From NCBI RefSeq assembly GCF_054482595.1, contig NZ_JBTHVH010000004.1: a stretch of DNA of 64,000 nucleotides; one strand, 5' to 3'. The number at the start of each line of letters is the position of its first letter. Positions within the stretch are counted from its first letter, which is position 1. Both the position numbers and the translations under genes were made by a program. The notes under the pieces were generated by a model. It did no database searches and was not told where the DNA came from. It saw nothing but the letters and a program-made list of their open reading frames with translations. Origin of the DNA: a plasmid. Positions 355 to 21,914 of the stretch are shown piece after piece.

Positions 355-714
355 TTATTAATATTGGCACAACAAAAAGACTGTGCCTAGATTTGAAAAT
401 AGTTTATGCCCCTTTCGGGGCTAAAGGCATTGTAATAGCCTGTCTTTTAAAGTTGTTTATTAAGTTCGGAGAAAAACTTTAATCATAAGCCAAGCCCACT
501 GCTAAATACATCCGATATTCTCCTTCATTTTATTAGAAGTGATAAAAGTTACTTTACCTAAACTTCTCTCTCAATATTTGTAAGGCTCTCATTTGATTTT
601 TGTCAAACATTAATCTGGAAGACGGAAAAATCATTTCTTTTAATACGTTTTACAGAAATCCTCCTCCGTTATTTCGGATATAGTTTGAATCATTATCAAA
701 AACGGGGTGCAGCC

Positions 715-1797
715 ATGCGTAAGAGTTATACATTTGGTATTCCATTTGGACTCCAGCGAGAATCAGGACTCTTTTTAGATATTACAGAGGTCAGCCGGGG
801 TATTGACTGTAACTGCATCTGCCCCGCTTGCAAAACTGATCTGTTAGCAAAGCAGGGGGAGGTCAAGCTTTGGCATTTCTCACACAGTACAGCTGTAGCC
901 GGTGACTGTGATGGTCTGATGGAAGCCATCCGGGGAAAGATTATTGAAGTCATCAACGAGCACCAGGTTCTTGGTTTCCCAAATCTTCTCGCTGGCGACG
1001 ATGGTGGGCCGGTTTCACTGAATGAGGTTAGTGGAAGCGGCAGTATGTTCGGAGGCACAGCTGATCTGTTCGTAAAGGTTAATGATTTATGTGTGGCCGT
1101 CTTTCTGGACAGGGATCGCAGCATTTCAGAGAAGTTAACCTTTGACCATCTTCATCCTTCCGAAAGAGTTGCCGCATTGCGTATCGATCTTCCTGATATT
1201 GAATATGAAATCAGTCAGGTGCAGCTCGGGCGACGTAAAACAACATACAGTGAGTGCATTGAAAGCCTGATCATTGATGAGACCAGTTCCCGGGAATGGC
1301 TATATCATCCATTAATGCATGAACTTGAATCTGAACCTCTTCAGGAGTATCGGGGACGGGAGCCTTCAGAGGAAGGGCCTCTTCTTCAGCGCCTTGCTGA
1401 CTGTAAGATGAAATTGCCTGATATCCTTCCGGGCAGTCATAACGCGCTAGTCAGGTTACAGCAGGATACGATTGTATGTCTGTGTCGGTTAACGGTTCGG
1501 GCTTATGACATCGCTCAGACCGATGAATTTCCTTTGTTCCTTCGCTATTTCAGGTTGCACTGCCTGGAAAACAGCGAACATGTCAGTTACGAAAGACTGA
1601 TCTGCTGGCAGGAAATGATTTCAAAAACCCAGGAAGGCCAGTCCTTGACACAAAACGAACTTGAATATCTTCATGAGATTGTCCGCATCGCCTTTTACAA
1701 TCACCGGCTTAACAATGTCAGTATTTCAGATGTTAAAAACCATGACACTGGAAAGAAGAGCGGCAGGGTAGAGTCACAAAATTATTCACTTTTATAA
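715..1797 (+). CDS. CoiA-like family protein (Cys-rich N-terminal zinc-finger-like motif)
   Basis: ORF 685..1797; ATG at 715 preferred over the TTG at 685. N-terminus 'CNCICPACKTDL..GEVKLWHFSHS' resembles the CoiA CxxC..HF(A/S)H signature. Confidence 0.5.
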   Translation: MRKSYTFGIPFGLQRESGLFLDITEVSRGIDCNCICPACKTDLLAKQGEVKLWHFSHSTAVAGDCDGLMEAIRGKIIEVINEHQVLGFPNLLAGDDGGPVSLNEVSGSGSMFGGTADLFVKVNDLCVAVFLDRDRSISEKLTFDHLHPSERVAALRIDLPDIEYEISQVQLGRRKTTYSECIESLIIDETSSREWLYHPLMHELESEPLQEYRGREPSEEGPLLQRLADCKMKLPDILPGSHNALVRLQQDTIVCLCRLTVRAYDIAQTDEFPLFLRYFRLHCLENSEHVSYERLICWQEMISKTQEGQSLTQNELEYLHEIVRIAFYNHRLNNVSISDVKNHDTGKKSGRVESQNYSLL

Positions 1798-1963: not shown

Positions 1964-3463
1964 TTAGTTTTCAACTAACTGAACGACGACCAGCCTGCCG
2001 CCTTCCTCCTTTGACAGAACAAACTGAGCGTTATTCGTCAGTTCAATTTTTTCCCCAATGGCAATCTGTCGTTTATCCGGTAATGACATAAGCCCATTTA
2101 TGCCTTCATTTACTAACCACCACTGATCGTTATGGAAAACAAAATACCCAACTCGTTTCCTTTGTGCATCGGTTGTGCGCTCATTTGGCGCAATGAGGCG
2201 ATTCACATGCCACGCATAGATTGACTGCCCGCTCCACACCATCAACCGGTGGTCGTCAGGACGATAACTGCCTTCCTTTCGGGATGAATATAAATTTAGA
2301 ACCGGTAATTTACCCTTGTATGGCGTACCGCAGTAGGGACAAACCGGCTTTGTCTTACCTGAGAAAACGTACCATTTCTGTTCACACGCCTTGTTCTGGC
2401 AGGGCTGTATCAGATCGACTGTTTTAACCAGGGCACTTTCCCACTCATCGGCGGTCGGGCGTTTATTGGCATCGTGTAAGCCATCAATAAAGGCGCGTTC
2501 AAACAAAGGCGTCAAATAAGGGCCCATGATGGTGTAAGGAATTTTCTCCGGGTCAGCCCAGGGCAGTGAAAAGGAGGATAGCTGACTGACTTTGACTGCA
2601 TTGCTTTTGTCTGTCGGATGTTCAATGAAGAGTGCCTTCTCACCCATAGATAAGGTCTCATCACGTACTTCATCCGACATGTCATGTATTTTTCCGCCAC
2701 GTAGCGGATGACGGAAGAACAGATACATGTAGATAAGCACCGACAGCGCATGACGGTCAGTAGAAATGCTTGGCAATACGCGGTTCGGATCCTCTTTGGA
2801 AAGATGGCTGGTTTTCACCACTTCCGGAGCGATAAAATCCGGGGTGCCCACGACGTCGGGAGGATACTTTCCAGGGACAACCAGGCCGTCTACGTCAATG
2901 ATGCAGGCATGTCCCATTTCTGGATCGATAAGCACGTTTTTATAGCTTAGATCGCTGTGACAGAGACCTGCCGCATGCATCCTTCTGACGGCTCTTGTTA
3001 GCAGCAGACAGACCTTGAGATAGGTAAGCGTATTGCCTCGTTCACGTGGGTCGAGAAATTTATTCTGGTTGCTGGCGCTGGCAAACCATTTGCCTTCCTT
3101 TTCACGGCCTTTTATGCCAAGAAAATCATCGTTTTTAGAGCCGTATTTAAAGAAAAAGTAGCTTTTGTAGGTTGGAACCACGATGCCGATTTTATCCCCA
3201 TGCTCAACAACGTGGGTCGGCCAGCAAAACAGGTCCTTCCAGTATTCACCTCCGGACTGGCCAAAAATGTTTTGCCTGTAGCGTCCGGTGATCATATCAA
3301 TCCGATCCCGGGCCTGCTCGTTCTGCGGTTTATGATAAAAAGCGACGACGTATGATTTATCAGGCGAGAAGTAAACATCCTTCATCGAGCCCGAACCAAT
3401 TACCTCGTCAACATACTGGACTGTTTCGCCGTCCTTTGTTTTGCACGTAACAATATTTGCCAT
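1964..3463 (-). CDS. Ser/Thr protein kinase with C-terminal Cys-rich zinc-ribbon region (ter-linked TerY-P type)
   Basis: Kinase motifs in translation: Gly-rich 'IGSGSMKDVY', catalytic loop 'HSDLSYKNVLID', 'IIDVDG' in the DFG position, 'FIAPEV' (APE). C-terminal 'CQNKACEQKW...CPYCG'. ATG at 3463 (M19 of the track ORF) sits 26 bp after the upstream stop. Confidence 0.8.
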   Translation of the reverse strand: MANIVTCKTKDGETVQYVDEVIGSGSMKDVYFSPDKSYVVAFYHKPQNEQARDRIDMITGRYRQNIFGQSGGEYWKDLFCWPTHVVEHGDKIGIVVPTYKSYFFFKYGSKNDDFLGIKGREKEGKWFASASNQNKFLDPRERGNTLTYLKVCLLLTRAVRRMHAAGLCHSDLSYKNVLIDPEMGHACIIDVDGLVVPGKYPPDVVGTPDFIAPEVVKTSHLSKEDPNRVLPSISTDRHALSVLIYMYLFFRHPLRGGKIHDMSDEVRDETLSMGEKALFIEHPTDKSNAVKVSQLSSFSLPWADPEKIPYTIMGPYLTPLFERAFIDGLHDANKRPTADEWESALVKTVDLIQPCQNKACEQKWYVFSGKTKPVCPYCGTPYKGKLPVLNLYSSRKEGSYRPDDHRLMVWSGQSIYAWHVNRLIAPNERTTDAQRKRVGYFVFHNDQWWLVNEGINGLMSLPDKRQIAIGEKIELTNNAQFVLSKEEGGRLVVVQLVEN

Positions 3464-3488: not shown

Positions 3489-5129
3489 TTACCACAACAC
3501 CGCAATAGTGCGGTCATCGTGGTTCCCTGTGGAGAAAAAGTTAAGCCAGTCGCCTAACCTCTCAGGCGCAATACTGGCGTCTGTAAGGACAGGGATGAGC
3601 TCATCAAGGAGACGGGTCCATTTTTCGTCACTGCGAAGCCCGTTATCTGTCTCAAACAGAGGGTCTGATACGCCATCTGTCATGAGGATCAAGTGAGATA
3701 CATCATTCCATTTACCCACGCTGATGCGGCCGCTAAACGAGGGGTCTGCGATAATGCTCTGGTCAAGAAAGCGGGTTTGTCCTGCGTATTCTCCGCTATC
3801 GGGATTTCCCAGTATCCTGACTTTACCGGAAGGGCTGTATGCACCTATCGCACCATCACCAAGCCAGAATGCAGCCGCAAACAGCTCGTTATCAGTTCGT
3901 AGCGCTACAGTTGCCAGTAGGGTTGTTGAATAGGATTTCACAGGTTGTTCTGCACAAATGGCTTCGTTCTGGATACTGTTGACCGCGAGCGTAGCTGCCT
4001 GTTTAAAATGATGAAGCATGGCGTTTATGGTTGCCTGCTGATCGCTCCCTTCCCACGCCGTGATGTGCTGCTTTAGATGGACGCCTTTCAAACCACTGAG
4101 CTGATTGAAAAGGTAATCGCCAGCCGTTTGGACTGCAATCCGGGAGCCTTCCCGGGAATTTACCGCACTACCGGCCCCGTCTGCGACCAGCATGACAGAC
4201 CATCCTGTTTCCTGGCAGTGGTTGATATAGAAGTCGTCATCTCTGAAGCTCCCGGCATGCTCATGAGATCGTCCCCGGCGACTGGCGGCAGCAATACGTA
4301 TGTCACCCCTGACCAGGCCAGCAGCGTCCAGATGGGACTTAGGGTAGGAAGCGTCTGCTGGTGGCTCTACCACCTTCCACAGGCTTCTCGGATCGGGATT
4401 GACTATAAAAAGCTGTTTTGTTTCGCATTCGTCGTGCGAAGCGCATGACCAGAGTACTGAAAGCTCTATATCGCCGCTTTCGGTGGGTGTACCTGTCAGC
4501 AACTTATGCTCTTTGTCAAAGGTCAGGCCAATGTTCCTGGGAAAGACAACGTCCCTGACAGTAGCCTGCTGGCCCTCATCCAGAACTATAGCAACCGGCG
4601 AAGAGAAACGTTCGCCTGCGCGGGCGTTGGGAATAACTATTTTAGCTCTCGGGGGAACGGCAGGTGGCACAGCTAATCCGGCCCGCTGCTGGCCTGTCGG
4701 TATCTGCCCGGGTTTTAATACCAGGGAAGACAGGTTTTCGTCTTCCCTCTGTGCTGGTTTATCAAATTCGTAATAAGGCATCAGCTTCCAGAACGGAGGA
4801 TGAGGTTCATTTTCTGGCAGGGGTTGCAGTAATGGTGTATCGGTAGCGTCAATGCCCGGGTTATCAGCATCACTTACGACCGTTTGTTGCTGATCGGAAA
4901 GGCTGGATGCTGACGAGGGGGCGATCTCTGCGTCGTTATAACCTTCGCTAACCCGCGCAGATAAACCCTGTGCAAGGCTCTCAATCCGCTCTTTAAGCCG
5001 CATAATCTCTTCAGTAAGGGAAGGGTCGTGCGATAGAAGAAAAAGCCGCTCACCTTCTACAGGGTGGCCCAGCTCAGACAGCACTAAGCGGATAATCTTC
5101 TCTTCAAGTAAAACATTTTGCGACATCAA
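3489..5129 (-). CDS. PP2C-family Ser/Thr protein phosphatase with long N-terminal extension
   Basis: PP2C signatures 'MLVADGAGSAVNSREGS' and 'LILMTDGVSD'. Its stop overlaps the downstream kinase region; its start overlaps the upstream vWA stop (ATGA). Confidence 0.8.
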   Translation of the reverse strand: MMSQNVLLEEKIIRLVLSELGHPVEGERLFLLSHDPSLTEEIMRLKERIESLAQGLSARVSEGYNDAEIAPSSASSLSDQQQTVVSDADNPGIDATDTPLLQPLPENEPHPPFWKLMPYYEFDKPAQREDENLSSLVLKPGQIPTGQQRAGLAVPPAVPPRAKIVIPNARAGERFSSPVAIVLDEGQQATVRDVVFPRNIGLTFDKEHKLLTGTPTESGDIELSVLWSCASHDECETKQLFIVNPDPRSLWKVVEPPADASYPKSHLDAAGLVRGDIRIAAASRRGRSHEHAGSFRDDDFYINHCQETGWSVMLVADGAGSAVNSREGSRIAVQTAGDYLFNQLSGLKGVHLKQHITAWEGSDQQATINAMLHHFKQAATLAVNSIQNEAICAEQPVKSYSTTLLATVALRTDNELFAAAFWLGDGAIGAYSPSGKVRILGNPDSGEYAGQTRFLDQSIIADPSFSGRISVGKWNDVSHLILMTDGVSDPLFETDNGLRSDEKWTRLLDELIPVLTDASIAPERLGDWLNFFSTGNHDDRTIAVLW

Positions 5130-6166
5130 CCTCTCCCTCTGTTTACGTCGAAGTTAGTGTTTCCGCCATCATTGCTGAATGACAGACCTGTTTCACACCA
5201 CGGGCAGATCACGTCATCCGGGCCGTCAATGCACAGCAATTTTCCGCATGAGCACAGGGCAAACGCACTGGCATTACCGCAGTGAGGGCAACCCGGTACG
5301 CCATGCAGTTCGCTGGTGTTTACCTGCAAACCGGTAGCGGTGGCATCTGACCATGCAAAATAGTCTTCATCGATGGGATAGCATCCGGCAATATTAAAGC
5401 TGTTCAGGTTCAGGCTGAAATCGAGCCCGGAAATCCTTGCTGGTGGCCGTTCATACTTCATCAGATACGGACGACGGGTCTTGCTGCAACGGCCGGTAAG
5501 CGTAACGCAGTTTTCGTCGTACGCTTTTACTGGCTCGTCCTTGGCCAGCCGGACTATGTATTCAGTCTGGCTGAGCTCAGGTTGTTTGTCGTCTCCGACG
5601 CTGCGGCTGTGCGCCGTAACCGAGGCTGTGATCCATTTGATGAAGCGGGTAAAGTCCCCTTCCTGAGACTCGGTGAACAGCATGACATTCTCTGTCAGTT
5701 GCCGCAGGGTATTCAGGTCCGCTGACGGCCCCAGGCCAACGGCAATGAGATTCACTTTACTCGCGTAGTGATCCTTCCAGCGCTTCACTTCTGCGGTTGT
5801 GTCGTCAGTCGGACGTCCGTCGGTAAGGAGATACACGACGGGTTTCCAGTCGCCTTTAGCCTCATGAGTGGTTTTTCTGACCTGGGTATCAATTTGTACG
5901 GTCAGCTCACGCAATGCGGCCCCAAGGCTCGTACCGCCGCCAACGGGAAGGCGGGGAGGGTAGAACGAGGCAATTTCGTGAAGAGGTACAATCGTACGGG
6001 CTACACCGGCAAATGCGATTACCGAAACCCAGGCTGTTTCAAGTGCGTGTGGATCCTTTCTTAAATCTCCGATGATCATTTGCAGACCATCAGTCATTTT
6101 TTTCAGGTTTTCACCAATCATGGACTCTGAACAGTCCAGGACAAAAAACACGGGAAGGCGTCTCAT
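5126..6166 (-). CDS. vWA-domain protein (TerY-like) with C-terminal zinc ribbon
   Basis: MIDAS motif 'FFVLDCSESM' directly after the start 'MRRLPV' (ATG at 6166 with GAGGAAAA RBS); C-terminal 'CPHCGN..CSCG..CPWC'. The track ORF N-extension to 6370 is rejected. Confidence 0.75.
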   Translation of the reverse strand: MRRLPVFFVLDCSESMIGENLKKMTDGLQMIIGDLRKDPHALETAWVSVIAFAGVARTIVPLHEIASFYPPRLPVGGGTSLGAALRELTVQIDTQVRKTTHEAKGDWKPVVYLLTDGRPTDDTTAEVKRWKDHYASKVNLIAVGLGPSADLNTLRQLTENVMLFTESQEGDFTRFIKWITASVTAHSRSVGDDKQPELSQTEYIVRLAKDEPVKAYDENCVTLTGRCSKTRRPYLMKYERPPARISGLDFSLNLNSFNIAGCYPIDEDYFAWSDATATGLQVNTSELHGVPGCPHCGNASAFALCSCGKLLCIDGPDDVICPWCETGLSFSNDGGNTNFDVNRGRG

Positions 6167-6251
6167 AATTTTCCTCGTACGGCTGGTACGGCCAGCAGAA
6201 AACGTTGCTGTACAGAAAGGTGCTGCCCGGAAAGCAGCACCTTTCTGTCTG

Positions 6252-6893
6252 TCAGAGCACCAGCTGGATTTCTGGTGGAGGAGGGGGAAGGGTATCAGTT
6301 CCGTTATTGATCCCCGCGCTTGTGCTGCCGGAAGACACGCTGGCCGATACCCATTTAAAGAAACCTGCAAACGCGGTTGAATCTAGCGTCTCCAGAGACA
6401 CAACCTTATCGGTGAGCTGTTTTAAGTGCTCATGGCCTGCTTTAGGACCAACGGCGCAGGCAATGATGGATCCGAATCCCCGGCCGCGAATCGCTTTTAC
6501 CGCTTCACCGTACGCCAGGGCATCAGAAGGGGTTCCATCAGTCATCAGGAATACCAGAGGACGCCAGTCTCCTTTTGTATCACCATCTGAGCGACGTACA
6601 TCCCGTTCAACACACTGCATCAGACATTCAAGGGCAGCACCGGTGAACGTCCCGCCTGCGCTTGGCACAACGATGTCAGAAAACTGGAAGTCTTCCAGCG
6701 GCGTGAGAGGAATGAACTCACGCGCCTCATTGTCATAGGTGATAATGGAGATATGAACGCTTTCGAGGGCGTAGGGATCCTGGCGAAGAGCGCTAAGCAT
6801 CGCCTGAATTCCAACGTTAACGGAATGGATGGACTCACCGCGCATCGAGCCGGATGTGTCGATAACAAGGTAAACAGGCAGGCGGCGCATCAC
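6252..6893 (-). CDS. vWA-domain protein, TerY-like
   Basis: 'MMRRLPVYLVIDTSGSM' gives the DxSxS MIDAS motif at the N-terminus; 213 aa. Confidence 0.8.
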   Translation of the reverse strand: MMRRLPVYLVIDTSGSMRGESIHSVNVGIQAMLSALRQDPYALESVHISIITYDNEAREFIPLTPLEDFQFSDIVVPSAGGTFTGAALECLMQCVERDVRRSDGDTKGDWRPLVFLMTDGTPSDALAYGEAVKAIRGRGFGSIIACAVGPKAGHEHLKQLTDKVVSLETLDSTAFAGFFKWVSASVSSGSTSAGINNGTDTLPPPPPEIQLVL

Positions 6894-7531
6894 ATGTAAT
6901 TCCTCAGGTGCGAGACAAACGAATCTGATTCTGAAGGCTCACCAATTGCCCTGAGTTTCCAGCCTGTAGCCTCGCGTATCAGCTCGGCAAAAACCATGGA
7001 GCGCTGGCTGGCGAAGGCGGGTCCGCCAGAAAGATCGAATCGTGCCATTTCAATATTACGGGCATCTACTGCCCGGATGAAGGCATTCTGAACTTTACCA
7101 AAGTGCTGCTGGAGCTTTTCACCATTGTAGATCTGAACGATGAACACAATTTTCTCGTACTGAGCGTCAAGGGAATTCAGGCGCACAATAATTTGCTCAT
7201 CGTCACCATCACCGGCTCCGGTTCGGTTATCGCCCGTCAGCCAGATATTTCCTGACTTATGGCGAAGGCTGTTGAAAAAGATGATATCGCCATTCACAAG
7301 CGTTGGTTTACCATTTTCCACATTGCCGAGATCGGTCACCTTTCCGGCTGAATTACACAGGAAAGCGATCACATCAAGGTCGTATTCTTCTTCTTTTTTA
7401 CCAAAGATCCCGCCGAGGAAACCTTTCTTTTCCTCATTAATATCCCAACCCAGGCCGATAGTAACGGACGAGAGATCGTATTCATTTTTTTTCAGGCTTA
7501 CGCCCTGGCCTTTGCTCAGACTGACAGACAT
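6890..7531 (-). CDS. terX: TerD-family protein (TerX-like)
   Basis: TerD-family Ca-binding motif 'GDNRTGAGDGDDEQI'; paralogous by eye to terZ/terD/terE in this window; overlaps the downstream gene by 4 bp. Confidence 0.8.
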   Translation of the reverse strand: MSVSLSKGQGVSLKKNEYDLSSVTIGLGWDINEEKKGFLGGIFGKKEEEYDLDVIAFLCNSAGKVTDLGNVENGKPTLVNGDIIFFNSLRHKSGNIWLTGDNRTGAGDGDDEQIIVRLNSLDAQYEKIVFIVQIYNGEKLQQHFGKVQNAFIRAVDARNIEMARFDLSGGPAFASQRSMVFAELIREATGWKLRAIGEPSESDSFVSHLRNYM

Positions 7532-7553: not shown

Positions 7554-8192
7554 TTATAAGACCACGTTTACTTCTGGCGGCGGCGGTGGCAGGTCTTCAA
7601 GACCGATCACTTCTTTTTTGCTGGACTCCACTTTCTGACTGCCTACCGAAATGCTCGCACTGACCCATTTAAAGAAAGCTTTAATCGTCGAACTGTCAGC
7701 TGTATCGAGCTGAACCACGATTTCAGTGATTTCTTTGAGGACGCTGGTATCGGCATCATGCCCGGCTGCACATGCCACAACAACGCCGGTTCTGGCCGCT
7801 TTAAAGTCATTCAGGCCTTTACGCCAGTCATCATTCGGACTTCCATCCGTCATCAGGAATACAAGGGGACGCCAGTCACCTTTAGTGTCAGCCGTCGTTT
7901 TCTGTACTTCTTTGGCAATGGAGCTGGCCGTGAGGGAAAGCGCTTCGCCAAGAGAGGTGGTGCCGCTGGCTGTTAGTGCTGGCATCTGGAAACTCAGGAG
8001 GTCTGTCAGGGGGACTGCCTGTCGGGCTGAAGAATCAAAGGTGATCACTGACACGTAAGCCGTTTCGAGTGCATACGGATCCTGTTTCAGCGTGGTAAGC
8101 AGCGTCTGAACGCCATTCTTAACCGCTTCGATAGGCTCTCCGTGCATAGAGCCGGACGTGTCGAGTAGCAGATATACGGGTAAGCGTCTCAA
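7554..8192 (-). CDS. terY: vWA-domain protein TerY
   Basis: 'RRLPVYLLLDTSGSMHGE' MIDAS motif. Start assigned to TTG at 8192 preceded by AAGAAGGAA, matching the other vWA paralog N-termini, rather than the track GTG at 8273. Confidence 0.75.
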   Translation of the reverse strand: MRRLPVYLLLDTSGSMHGEPIEAVKNGVQTLLTTLKQDPYALETAYVSVITFDSSARQAVPLTDLLSFQMPALTASGTTSLGEALSLTASSIAKEVQKTTADTKGDWRPLVFLMTDGSPNDDWRKGLNDFKAARTGVVVACAAGHDADTSVLKEITEIVVQLDTADSSTIKAFFKWVSASISVGSQKVESSKKEVIGLEDLPPPPPEVNVVL

Positions 8193-20672: not shown

Positions 20673-21914
20673 GTGAATCTACAATCCGGACAAAACATAC
20701 CGCTTCAGCAATCTGCGATCAGGCTGAATCTTCAGTACCCTGCCAAATCCGGCTTTAAAGGCGAACCCGATACCTGCCTCTTCCTGCTTAATGCTCAGGG
20801 AAAGGTAACCGGCGATTCTGACTTTATCTTTTATAATAATCTGTCTTCTCCTGAAGGGGCAGTAAAGCTCGTTACCGGTTCTCAGCAGTCCAGCATTGAG
20901 ATAGCACTGGATCGTGTTCCGGCGAACGTCAGTAAGATTGCGATCACCGTTGTCATTGATGGTGAAGATACTATCAGTGGGCTCAGTTTATTGAGCATTC
21001 AGGCTCCTGGTATCGCTGATTTTCAGGCTGAGACTCAGGGCCGCAGTGAGAAAGCAATCATCCTGGGTGAAGTATATCGGCACAATGGCGCCTGGAAGCT
21101 TCGTGCGCTCGGGCAGGGTTTCAACGGTGGTCTTGAGCCTCTGGCCATTAGCTTTGGCGTTGATGTCGCACAGCCAGCTCCGCAGCCAGCAAAGCCTGCT
21201 CGTATCAGTCTGGAAAAGAAACTTGAAACCAGATCTCCGCGCCTCGTAAGCCTCGCTAAAAAAGCCTCGGTCAGTCTCACTAAAAATAAACTGGACACCC
21301 TTGAGGCAGCGGTTGCATTTGTACTTGACGCATCCGGCTCAATGAGTGGCCAGTTCAGTAAGGGCAACGTTCAGTCTGTGCTGGACCGCATCGCCGTTCT
21401 TGCCGCCCAGTTCGACGACGACGGTGAAATGGATGTCTGGGGATTTGGAGAGAAGCACAAGAAGTATCCAAACGTCACACTGGACAACCTGGACACATAT
21501 ATTCAGTCCATTCGCGGGTCTGGAAAGCGTTCAGCCTGGGAGAACCTGCCGGGACTTGGTGGGACAAACAATGAGCCCCCTGTGATGGAAGAAATTGTCG
21601 ACTACTTTAAGGACTCGAAAATCCCGGTATATGTTGTATTTATTACCGATGGCGGGATCAGCAAGACCCGGGCGATTAAAGATGCAATCCGGCGTTCTGC
21701 CAACTACCCCATCTTCTGGAAGTTTGTCGGCCTGGGTGGTTCAAGCTACGGTATCCTCAAAAATCTGGATGACTTTACTGACCGCCGGGTTGATAACACC
21801 CACTTCTTTGCCATGGATGATTTCGGTTCGATCAGCGATGAAAAGTTATATGATAATTTACTGGAAGAATTCAGACCGTGGATCGATGAAACAAAAAGGT
21901 TAGGCATCCTGTAA
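20673..21914 (+). CDS. terF: TerF: TerD-like N-terminal domain fused to a C-terminal vWA domain
   Basis: GTG start at 20673 with AGGAGAG RBS; C-terminal half has MIDAS '[12 protein letters not shown]'. Confidence 0.8.

What the first reader, a model, noticed from the sequence alone, without database searches (positions are those of the whole stretch)
5126..6166. vWA paralog with a C-terminal multi-Cys zinc ribbon
Of the three TerY-like vWA genes only this one carries a C-terminal 'CPHCGN..CSCG..CPWC' cluster, and the kinase C-terminus has a comparable Cys cluster. Shared metal-binding modules suggest a physical kinase-vWA coupling or metal/tellurite sensing.
Basis: inference. Interest (0 to 1): 0.4.

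Follow-up and report, generated by a model that had tools for sequence, protein, structure and literature searches.

The report
terY3: vWA protein with TerY-C domain
This is terY3 of the tellurite-resistance region of an IncHI2 plasmid. Its cysteine-rich tail is real and conserved, but it is the already catalogued TerY-C metal-binding domain of the known vWA–phosphatase–kinase "TerY-P" module, so the finding is ordinary.

Summary
The minus-strand CDS 5126-6166 encodes a 346-aa protein with an N-terminal vWA domain (intact MIDAS motif) and a cysteine-rich C-terminal domain. The two TerY paralogs in the window lack that domain.

The tail is not new. It matches Pfam TerY_C (PF15616) end to end (E=4.5e-53), and RefSeq already names the protein "TerY-C metal binding domain-containing protein". 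The window is 100% identical to IncHI2 plasmids such as pAPEC-O1-R.

In 54 full-length homologs, eight cysteines are invariant or nearly so: C227, C293, C296, C305, C307, C312, C321 and C324. C220 and C262 are not conserved.

The kinase has four invariant cysteines forming a simple Cys4 zinc ribbon, followed by a conserved β-rich tail. It is not detectably homologous to TerY-C; only a generic CPxCG knuckle matches.

The functional link to the kinase is real but rests on synteny. In 65 of 69 genomes, terY3 is followed directly by the PP2C and kinase genes. This is the published TerY-P triad.

Minor new details are a weak RING-like spacing of the cysteines and a strictly conserved C-terminal R-x-[RKQ]-G end. 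Tellurite or metal sensing remains untested.

The parts
5126..6166 (-). terY3 CDS (346 aa + stop): vWA + TerY-C protein
   Evidence: Translation. RefSeq WP_001253653.1 is named 'TerY-C metal binding domain-containing protein' at the same coordinates. Named terY3 in the R478 gene order terY3Y2XY1W (PMC4855149).
5687..6151 (-). vWA domain (residues 6-160) with a complete MIDAS motif: D11, S13, S15, T79, D116
   Evidence: Pfam VWA PF00092, E=3.2e-13. The MIDAS residues are 96-98% conserved in 54 homologs.
5129..5518 (-). TerY-C domain (residues 217-346)
   Evidence: Pfam TerY_C PF15616, E=4.5e-53, model positions 1-129 of 129.
5486..5488 (-). Codon of C227, the isolated invariant cysteine in the N-terminal half of TerY-C
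   Evidence: 100% conserved in 54 homologs. It lies 53-89 residues upstream of C293.
5195..5290 (-). Seven-cysteine cluster C293-x2-C296-x8-C305-x-C307-x4-C312-x8-C321-x2-C324
   Evidence: Conservation is 93-100% and spacing is nearly fixed across 54 homologs. Weak profile hits to RING domains in the PDB.
5129..5140 (-). C-terminal R-G-R-G-COOH, the family motif R-x-[RKQ]-G at the very end of the protein
   Evidence: R343 is 83% and G346 94% conserved. In 68 of 69 distinct gene ends the motif is kept, using all six Arg codons and all four Gly codons.
3489..5126 (-). PP2C phosphatase gene. Its ATG overlaps the terY3 stop codon (TGATG).
   Evidence: Pfam PP2C_2, E=1.8e-46. Junction sequence read directly. 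RefSeq coordinates.
1964..3463 (-). Ser/Thr protein kinase gene (499 aa from the RefSeq start). Kinase core, then a zinc ribbon, then a β-rich tail.
   Evidence: Pfam Pkinase, E=1e-9. The catalytic-loop HSDLSYKN, the DVDG motif and the TPDFIAPE motif are largely invariant in 65 orthologs.
2330..2401 (-). Kinase Cys4 zinc ribbon, C-x4-C-x14-C-P-x-C
   Evidence: All four Cys are 100% conserved in 67 orthologs.
6252..6890 (-). terY2, a vWA paralog without TerY-C that ends in PPPPPEIQLVL
   Evidence: Alignment. RefSeq coordinates.
6890..7531 (-). terX (TerD family)
   Evidence: RefSeq 'TerD family protein'.
7554..8192 (-). terY1, a vWA paralog without TerY-C that ends in PPPPPEVNVVL
   Evidence: Alignment. 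RefSeq coordinates.

Best explanation
The gene is terY3 of an IncHI2 (R478/pAPEC-O1-R type) plasmid ter region. Its product is a cytoplasmic two-domain protein. The N-terminal vWA domain has an intact metal-ion-dependent adhesion site (MIDAS). The C-terminal TerY-C domain has eight conserved cysteines that most likely hold two structural Zn(Cys)4 sites.

terY3 is the first gene of a self-contained three-gene module, vWA/TerY-C then PP2C phosphatase then Ser/Thr kinase. This is the "TerY-P triad".

Shown here:
- the domain identities;
- the cysteine conservation;
- the overlap of the terY3 stop codon with the PP2C start codon, which suggests translational coupling;
- the near-universal gene order;
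- the conserved catalytic motifs of the kinase.

Inferred, following Anantharaman et al. 2012 as summarised in Bell 2024:
- The kinase and phosphatase form a reversible phosphorylation switch acting on, or assembled around, the vWA protein.
- The vWA MIDAS captures an acidic group of a partner protein.
- TerY-C is a rigid zinc-stabilised docking module that distinguishes this vWA paralog as the one wired to the kinase and phosphatase. It is not a tellurite sensor.
For: Identity of the region:
- The region is 100% identical to many IncHI2 plasmids, and RefSeq annotates TerY-C, PP2C and kinase genes there.
- Pfam gives VWA plus a full-length TerY_C match, E=4.5e-53, PP2C_2 and Pkinase.

The cysteine domain:
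- Eight Cys are 93-100% conserved and the MIDAS is conserved in 54 homologs.
- Cys spacing is fixed, with CPxC knuckles and no conserved His, Asp or Glu ligand in the domain. This is typical of structural Zn sites.
- Architecture is uniform across 219 cluster representatives. TerY-C is always C-terminal to a vWA domain.

Link to the phosphatase and kinase:
- 65 of 69 genome loci with enough downstream DNA have PP2C and the kinase immediately downstream on the same strand. This holds across Gamma- and Betaproteobacteria and Bacteroidota.
- Three of four contexts reached from the kinase tail also carry vWA+TerY_C and PP2C.
- The terY3 stop overlaps the PP2C start.
- The kinase catalytic motifs are largely invariant.
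- The module occurs alone among housekeeping genes in Cardiobacterium.

Literature: TerY-P triad descriptions in PMC11090510, PMC4978471 and PMC7699616.
Against:
- PADLOC models do not recognise the vWA or PP2C proteins.
- Four of 69 loci lack the kinase, or both enzymes, downstream.
- The original 2012 paper could not be read here.
Confidence: 0.6

Rival explanations
1. The Cys clusters of TerY3 and the kinase are equivalent metal-binding modules that contact each other. Alternatively, their thiols directly sense tellurite, metal or redox stress, with loss of Zn acting as the switch.
For: Both clusters are invariant. Both genes travel together. Tellurite reacts with thiols, and Zn-Cys4 redox switches exist (general knowledge). 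The literature hypothesis calls the triad a 'metal-sensing' switch.
Against: The two modules are not homologous. 20 of 80 loci have no TerD gene within about 8 kb, and the Cardiobacterium triad sits among housekeeping genes. Published surveys report kinases with a zinc ribbon next to plain vWA proteins, with no TerY-C mentioned (those operons were not examined here).
Confidence: 0.15
2. TerY-C is a nucleic-acid-binding zinc module that tethers the triad to DNA or RNA. This would fit the DNA-processing and restriction contexts of other TerY-P triads.
For: [quoted passage not shown] TerY-C-like CxxC modules are noted in YprA defence helicases. The C-terminal tail is basic (R-x-R/K-G).
Against: No similarity to a known nucleic-acid-binding domain reached significance. 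The neighbours here are Ter proteins and nucleoside-metabolite biosynthesis enzymes, not nucleases.
Confidence: 0.12
3. The C-terminal 45 residues of TerY-C form a RING-like cross-brace binuclear zinc finger. It would act as an adaptor, or as an E3-like protein-protein interaction unit.
For: The TerY-C profile hits about 12 different RING domains in the PDB (BIRC7 E=5.8e-4, RNF4 7e-4, MYLIP, MIB1, RING1B). C293, C296, C307, C312, C321 and C324 align with RING ligands 1, 2, 3, 5, 7 and 8, and the CP-x-C motif is shared.
Against: RING ligand positions 4 (His) and 6 (Cys) are missing. Pfam RING models do not hit: only 1 of 35 members at E<=0.1, while zf-C2HC5 hits 2 of 35. Cys-rich profiles give inflated scores. 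No E1, E2 or Ubl genes lie nearby.
Confidence: 0.1

Closest known systems
Pfam PF15616 TerY_C (TerY-C metal binding domain), i.e. terY3 of IncHI2 plasmid R478
   Same: Full-length HMM match. Same position after a vWA domain. Same conserved cysteines. Identical protein in RefSeq.
   Different: Nothing. This is a member, and in fact the archetype locus.
TerY-P (TerY-phosphorylation) triad of Anantharaman, Iyer & Aravind 2012
   Same: TerY-like vWA, PP2C phosphatase and Ser/Thr kinase with a C-terminal zinc ribbon, co-directional and adjacent.
   Different: This Ter-linked subtype adds TerY-C to the vWA protein and a conserved ~110-aa β-rich domain after the kinase zinc ribbon. The CoCoNuT-linked and H. 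pylori triads are described with a TerY-like vWA or TerY component, with no TerY-C mentioned.
TerY-P anti-phage system of Gao et al. 2020
   Same: Same three-gene logic. Reported to protect against T7-like phages.
   Different: In that system the kinase carries a C-terminal OB fold instead of a zinc ribbon. PADLOC models gave no hit to the vWA or PP2C proteins here. No defence phenotype is known for this locus's triad.
RING and other binuclear treble-clef zinc fingers
   Same: Similar C-x2-C ... C-x-(C/H) ... C ... C-P-x-C spacing, with weak profile hits.
   Different: Two canonical ligand positions are absent. There is no reciprocal Pfam support. The fold could not be tested.
TerY1/TerY2 paralogs in the same operon
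   Same: 38-40% identical vWA domains with the same MIDAS motif.
   Different: They end at ~212 aa with a conserved LPPPPPE[VI]x[LV]VL tail instead of TerY-C. They are not adjacent to the kinase and phosphatase.

Membership tests
Pfam TerY_C (PF15616) | Significant full-length match to the family HMM | tested here: met
   E=4.5e-53, model 1-129/129, residues 217-346. All 35 aligned homologs also match.
Pfam TerY_C (PF15616) | Located C-terminal to a TerY-type vWA domain | tested here: met
   VWA at residues 6-160 and TerY_C at 217-346. The full-length representatives share this architecture.
Pfam TerY_C (PF15616) | Conserved cysteine set predicted to bind metal | tested here: met
   8 Cys are 93-100% conserved. 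Actual metal binding cannot be tested with these tools.
TerY-P triad | TerY-like vWA gene with an intact MIDAS motif | tested here: met
   D11-x-S13-x-S15, T79 and D116 are present and conserved.
TerY-P triad | Adjacent co-directional PP2C phosphatase and Ser/Thr kinase genes | tested here: met
   Window gene order. Conserved in 65 of 69 loci.
TerY-P triad | Kinase fused to a C-terminal zinc ribbon | tested here: met
   Four invariant Cys, C-x4-C-x14-CPxC. Described for the family.
TerY-P triad | Kinase and phosphatase act on the vWA protein (phosphorylation switch) | not testable with these tools
   This is a hypothesis in the literature only.
Gao 2020 TerY-P defence system | Match to defence-system HMMs (PADLOC) | tested here: not met
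   No hit for the vWA or PP2C proteins even at E<=10. The kinase hits only unrelated kinase models. Whether this library holds TerY-P models is unknown.
Gao 2020 TerY-P defence system | Kinase with a C-terminal OB fold | tested here: inconclusive
   Here the kinase has a zinc ribbon plus a β-rich tail of unknown fold. There were no Pfam or PDB hits for the tail, and structure prediction was off.
Gao 2020 TerY-P defence system | Protects against phage | not testable with these tools
   Requires an experiment.
RING / binuclear treble clef | Eight ligands in C3HC4-type cross-brace spacing | tested here: not met
   Six of eight positions align. The His-4 and Cys-6 positions are absent, and C305 and C227 might substitute.
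RING / binuclear treble clef | Match to RING family HMMs | tested here: not met
   1 of 35 members at E<=0.1 (zf-RING_6) and none at E<=0.001.
RING / binuclear treble clef | Cross-brace fold | not testable with these tools
   BLASTP was not significant. hhalign gave 40% probability over 12 columns.

The most novel reading that the evidence does not exclude
The 7-Cys half of TerY-C, together with C227, forms a RING-like cross-braced binuclear zinc module. The strictly conserved free C-terminus (R-x-[RKQ]-G-COOH) is a functional tail. For example, its terminal carboxylate could plug a vWA MIDAS site, either its own or that of TerY1/TerY2, or it could dock into the kinase or PP2C, and be released by phosphorylation. 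Under this reading the poly-proline-Glu tails of TerY1/TerY2 would be alternative plugs, and the three TerY paralogs would form a tail-swapping assembly gated by the kinase and phosphatase.
Probability: 0.1. Interest if true: 0.5.

Novelty: already known. Interest (0 to 1): 0.15.

Why it matters
The ter region is carried on thousands of clinical Enterobacterales plasmids. 1,304 PLSDB records match this 6.4-kb stretch, and 2,341 carry the kinase. No mechanism for it was found in the literature searched.

Knowing that TerY-C marks the one vWA paralog wired to the PP2C/kinase pair narrows down which protein to test as kinase substrate or scaffold. For this scan, though, the finding rediscovers a catalogued domain (Pfam PF15616, annotated in RefSeq) and a published operon concept, the TerY-P triad. 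It opens no new question by itself.

The only modest additions are the exact conserved Cys set, the C-terminal R-x-[RKQ]-G motif and the weak RING-like spacing.

Tried and rejected
- **Structure prediction.** There was therefore no model, no fold search and no complex prediction, and the zinc-site topology and any TerY-C/kinase contact stay untested.
- **Word-index homolog search with the C-domain.** It returned only fragments. It was replaced by the exhaustive representative search.
- **Locus scan with the 35-sequence C-domain alignment.** Repeated with 7 closer sequences.
- **FHA-like fold for the kinase tail.** I suspected this from a G..S..H...N.G-like pattern. There is no Pfam support in 16 members and no PDB support, so the idea is dropped.
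- **C-terminal RGRG as a by-product of the PP2C Shine-Dalgarno sequence.** The GGGAGAGG lies in those codons. Rejected because the motif persists with all synonymous codons and with variable gene spacing, including in Bacteroidota.
- **Distant kinases next to vWA genes without TerY-C.** The 'spread' tblastn against plasmids did not reach them, so that point rests on the literature.
- **TerY-C in phage genomes.** No match.
- **Source papers.** The Anantharaman 2012 and Burroughs 2011 papers are not held.
- **Hairpin between terY2 and terY3 as a conserved regulatory element.** Not conserved in other genera.
Full report
**What is at the coordinates.** Window 5126-6166 on the minus strand is a clean 346-codon ORF, MRRLPVFF...NRGRG*, with a GAGGA ribosome-binding site 6 nt upstream. 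The surrounding 6.4 kb is 100% identical to many IncHI2 plasmids, for example pAPEC-O1-R (NC_009838), and 1,304 PLSDB records match it.

The RefSeq annotation of that plasmid gives the minus-strand order terW, vWA (terY1), TerD family (terX), vWA (terY2), "TerY-C metal binding domain-containing protein", PP2C phosphatase and "lipopolysaccharide kinase InaA family protein". In the R478 nomenclature this is terY3Y2XY1W (PMC4855149). The finding is therefore terY3.

**Checking the observation.** Pfam finds VWA at residues 6-160 and TerY_C (PF15616) at residues 217-346, with E=4.5e-53 and the whole 129-position model covered. Aligning the three TerY paralogs confirms that only TerY3 has the C-terminal extension. 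TerY1 and TerY2 stop at about 212 aa. All three keep the MIDAS residues D-x-S-x-S, T and D.

The C-terminal 130 residues hold 10 Cys, against one in the first 216.

An exhaustive HMMER search of 1.84 billion cluster representatives with the C-domain found 219 proteins at E<=1e-3. The full-length ones are 330-400 aa, with the domain at the extreme C-terminus after a vWA domain. The apparent exceptions I inspected are fragments or frameshifted sequences.

In 54 full-length homologs that are 30-57% identical, conservation is as follows:
- C227, C293, C296, C307, C312, C321 and C324 are invariant.
- C305 is 93% conserved.
- C220 and C262 are conserved in 11-13%, and C12 in 11%.

Spacing is nearly fixed at C-x2-C-x7/8-C-x1/2-C-x4-C-x8/9-C-x2-C. 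C227 lies 53-89 residues upstream, and 18-23 residues follow the last Cys. No His, Asp or Glu in the domain is conserved as a candidate ligand. Eight Cys with CPxC knuckles fit two structural Zn(Cys)4 sites. This is inference, not measurement.

**The kinase cluster and the "shared module" idea.** I extracted 67 distinct kinase orthologs from related loci. The C-terminal region contains exactly four invariant cysteines, C-x4-C-x14-C-P-x-C (C373/378/393/396 in the 517-aa ORF). This is a classic Cys4 zinc ribbon. It is followed by a very highly conserved ~110-residue β-rich tail.

BLASTP between the two C-terminal regions finds nothing significant. hhalign between the TerY-C alignment (A3) and the kinase C-terminal alignment (A5) gives 40% probability over 12 columns, essentially "P-x-C-P-x-C-G". 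The two clusters therefore share a generic zinc knuckle and nothing more.

The kinase tail has no Pfam or PDB match. My passing idea that it is FHA-like is unsupported. Kaur et al. 2020 describe the same "zinc ribbon and a β-strand-rich domain" on kinases paired with PP2C and a stand-alone vWA gene. Bell et al. 2024 describe zinc-ribbon kinases next to TerY-like vWA genes in CoCoNuT systems. Neither description mentions TerY-C on the vWA partner. I did not examine those operons myself.

**What supports a functional link.** A scan of one genome per species returned 80 loci encoding TerY-C. They come from Enterobacterales, Chromatiales, Pasteurellales, Cardiobacteriales, Moraxellaceae, Neisseriales, Rhodocyclales, Nitrosomonadales and Bacteroidota.

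- Of the 69 loci with at least 3.6 kb downstream, 65 have PP2C and the kinase immediately downstream on the same strand.
- 20 of the 80 loci have no TerD gene within the flanks, and 11 have no further vWA paralog upstream.
- In Cardiobacterium the three genes sit alone among peptide-transport, coaE and pilBC genes.
- Going the other way, kinase-tail homologs in Bacteroides stercoris and in two metagenome contigs again lie next to vWA+TerY_C and PP2C genes. A fourth contig was cut off at the kinase, so nothing upstream could be seen.

In the window, the terY3 stop codon overlaps the PP2C start (TGATG), and the kinase starts 25 nt after the PP2C stop. The kinase catalytic loop HSDLSYKN, the DVDG motif and the TPDFIAPE motif are largely invariant across 65 orthologs, so the enzyme is probably active.

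This is the published TerY-P triad. It was hypothesised to be a metal-sensing, phosphorylation-dependent switch (Anantharaman et al. 2012, as summarised). Related triads act as anti-phage systems (Gao 2020). PADLOC models do not recognise the vWA or PP2C proteins here. No TerY-C is found in phage records.

**Most likely mechanism.** The following points are shown:
- A MIDAS-competent vWA domain is fused to an eight-Cys domain.
- The gene's stop codon overlaps the start of the PP2C gene and is followed by a probably active kinase gene.
- The trio behaves as an evolutionary unit.

The following points are inferred:
- TerY3 is the scaffold or substrate of the phosphorylation switch.
- Its MIDAS site binds a partner's acidic group.
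- TerY-C is a zinc-stabilised docking module that makes this paralog the one wired to the kinase and phosphatase.

Thiol-based tellurite or redox sensing remains possible. It is made less likely by the Ter-less triads.

**Small additions.**
1. A profile of TerY-C weakly hits about a dozen RING domains in the PDB, including BIRC7 (E=5.8e-4), RNF4, MYLIP, MIB1 and RING1B. Six Cys align to RING ligands 1, 2, 3, 5, 7 and 8. However, ligand positions 4 and 6 are missing and Pfam RING models do not hit. This is only a lead.
2. The protein always ends R-x-[RKQ]-G-COOH. In 68 of 69 distinct gene ends the motif is kept, using all six Arg codons and all four Gly codons. This indicates selection on the protein, not on the downstream ribosome-binding site.
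3. TerY1/TerY2-type paralogs end with LPPPPPE[VI]x[LV]VL in 113 of 120 cases. Each TerY class therefore has its own conserved C-terminus.

**Verdict.** The domain, the gene and the operon logic are already catalogued, so novelty is "already known" and interest is low.

Noticed in passing
window 5129-5140 (-); loci L006-L084: The TerY-C family always ends with R-x-[RKQ]-G as the last four residues. The motif is kept with all six Arg and all four Gly codons, which indicates protein-level selection on a free C-terminal Gly. I found no explanation for it.
   Followed up: partly
window 6252-6290 and 7554-7592 (-): TerY1 and TerY2 end with a conserved LPPPPPE[VI]x[LV]VL-COOH tail. 113 of 120 upstream vWA paralogs in related loci carry a PPP tail of this kind. 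TerY3 has TerY-C in place of this tail.
   Followed up: partly
window 6212-6248 (-): A perfect 17-bp stem with a 3-nt loop lies in the terY2-terY3 intergenic region. The 101-nt region folds at -41.2 kcal/mol, z=-4.7. There is no U-tract, so it is not a canonical terminator. It is not conserved in other genera and may be an mRNA-processing or attenuation element specific to this plasmid lineage.
   Followed up: partly
window 5124-5140 (-): The terY3 stop and the PP2C start overlap (TGATG). The purine-rich RGRG codons (AGAGGGAGAGG) also serve as the PP2C Shine-Dalgarno sequence. This suggests translational coupling.
   Followed up: yes
window 1964-3463 (-): RefSeq names the kinase 'lipopolysaccharide kinase InaA family protein'. 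It is a eukaryote-like Ser/Thr kinase with a Cys4 zinc ribbon and a ~110-aa β-rich tail of unknown fold. By identity to the window proteins, the kinase core and this tail are the best-conserved parts of the triad (tail 46-66% identical in distant proteobacteria and Bacteroidota).
   Followed up: partly
window 4278-5126 (-): The N-terminal ~284 residues of the PP2C protein are poorly conserved and vary in length between species (24-58% identity). They contain an Ig-like 'LTGTPTESGDIELSV' motif. Pfam finds no domain there.
   Followed up: no
window 20673-21914 (+): A fourth vWA-containing gene (413 aa) lies downstream of the terZABCDE-type genes. It has a TerD-like N-terminal half and a vWA C-terminal half with no Cys cluster.
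   Followed up: no
window 685-1797 (+): A hypothetical 370-aa ORF next to the kinase gene carries an N-terminal 'CNCICPACK...WHFSH' Cys/His motif. RefSeq annotates it only as a hypothetical protein.
   Followed up: no
L071 7347-11448 (Cardiobacterium); also L068, L077: The vWA/TerY-C, PP2C and kinase trio occurs as a stand-alone three-gene insert among housekeeping genes (dipeptide permease, coaE, pilB/pilC). No Ter genes lie within 8 kb.
   Followed up: partly
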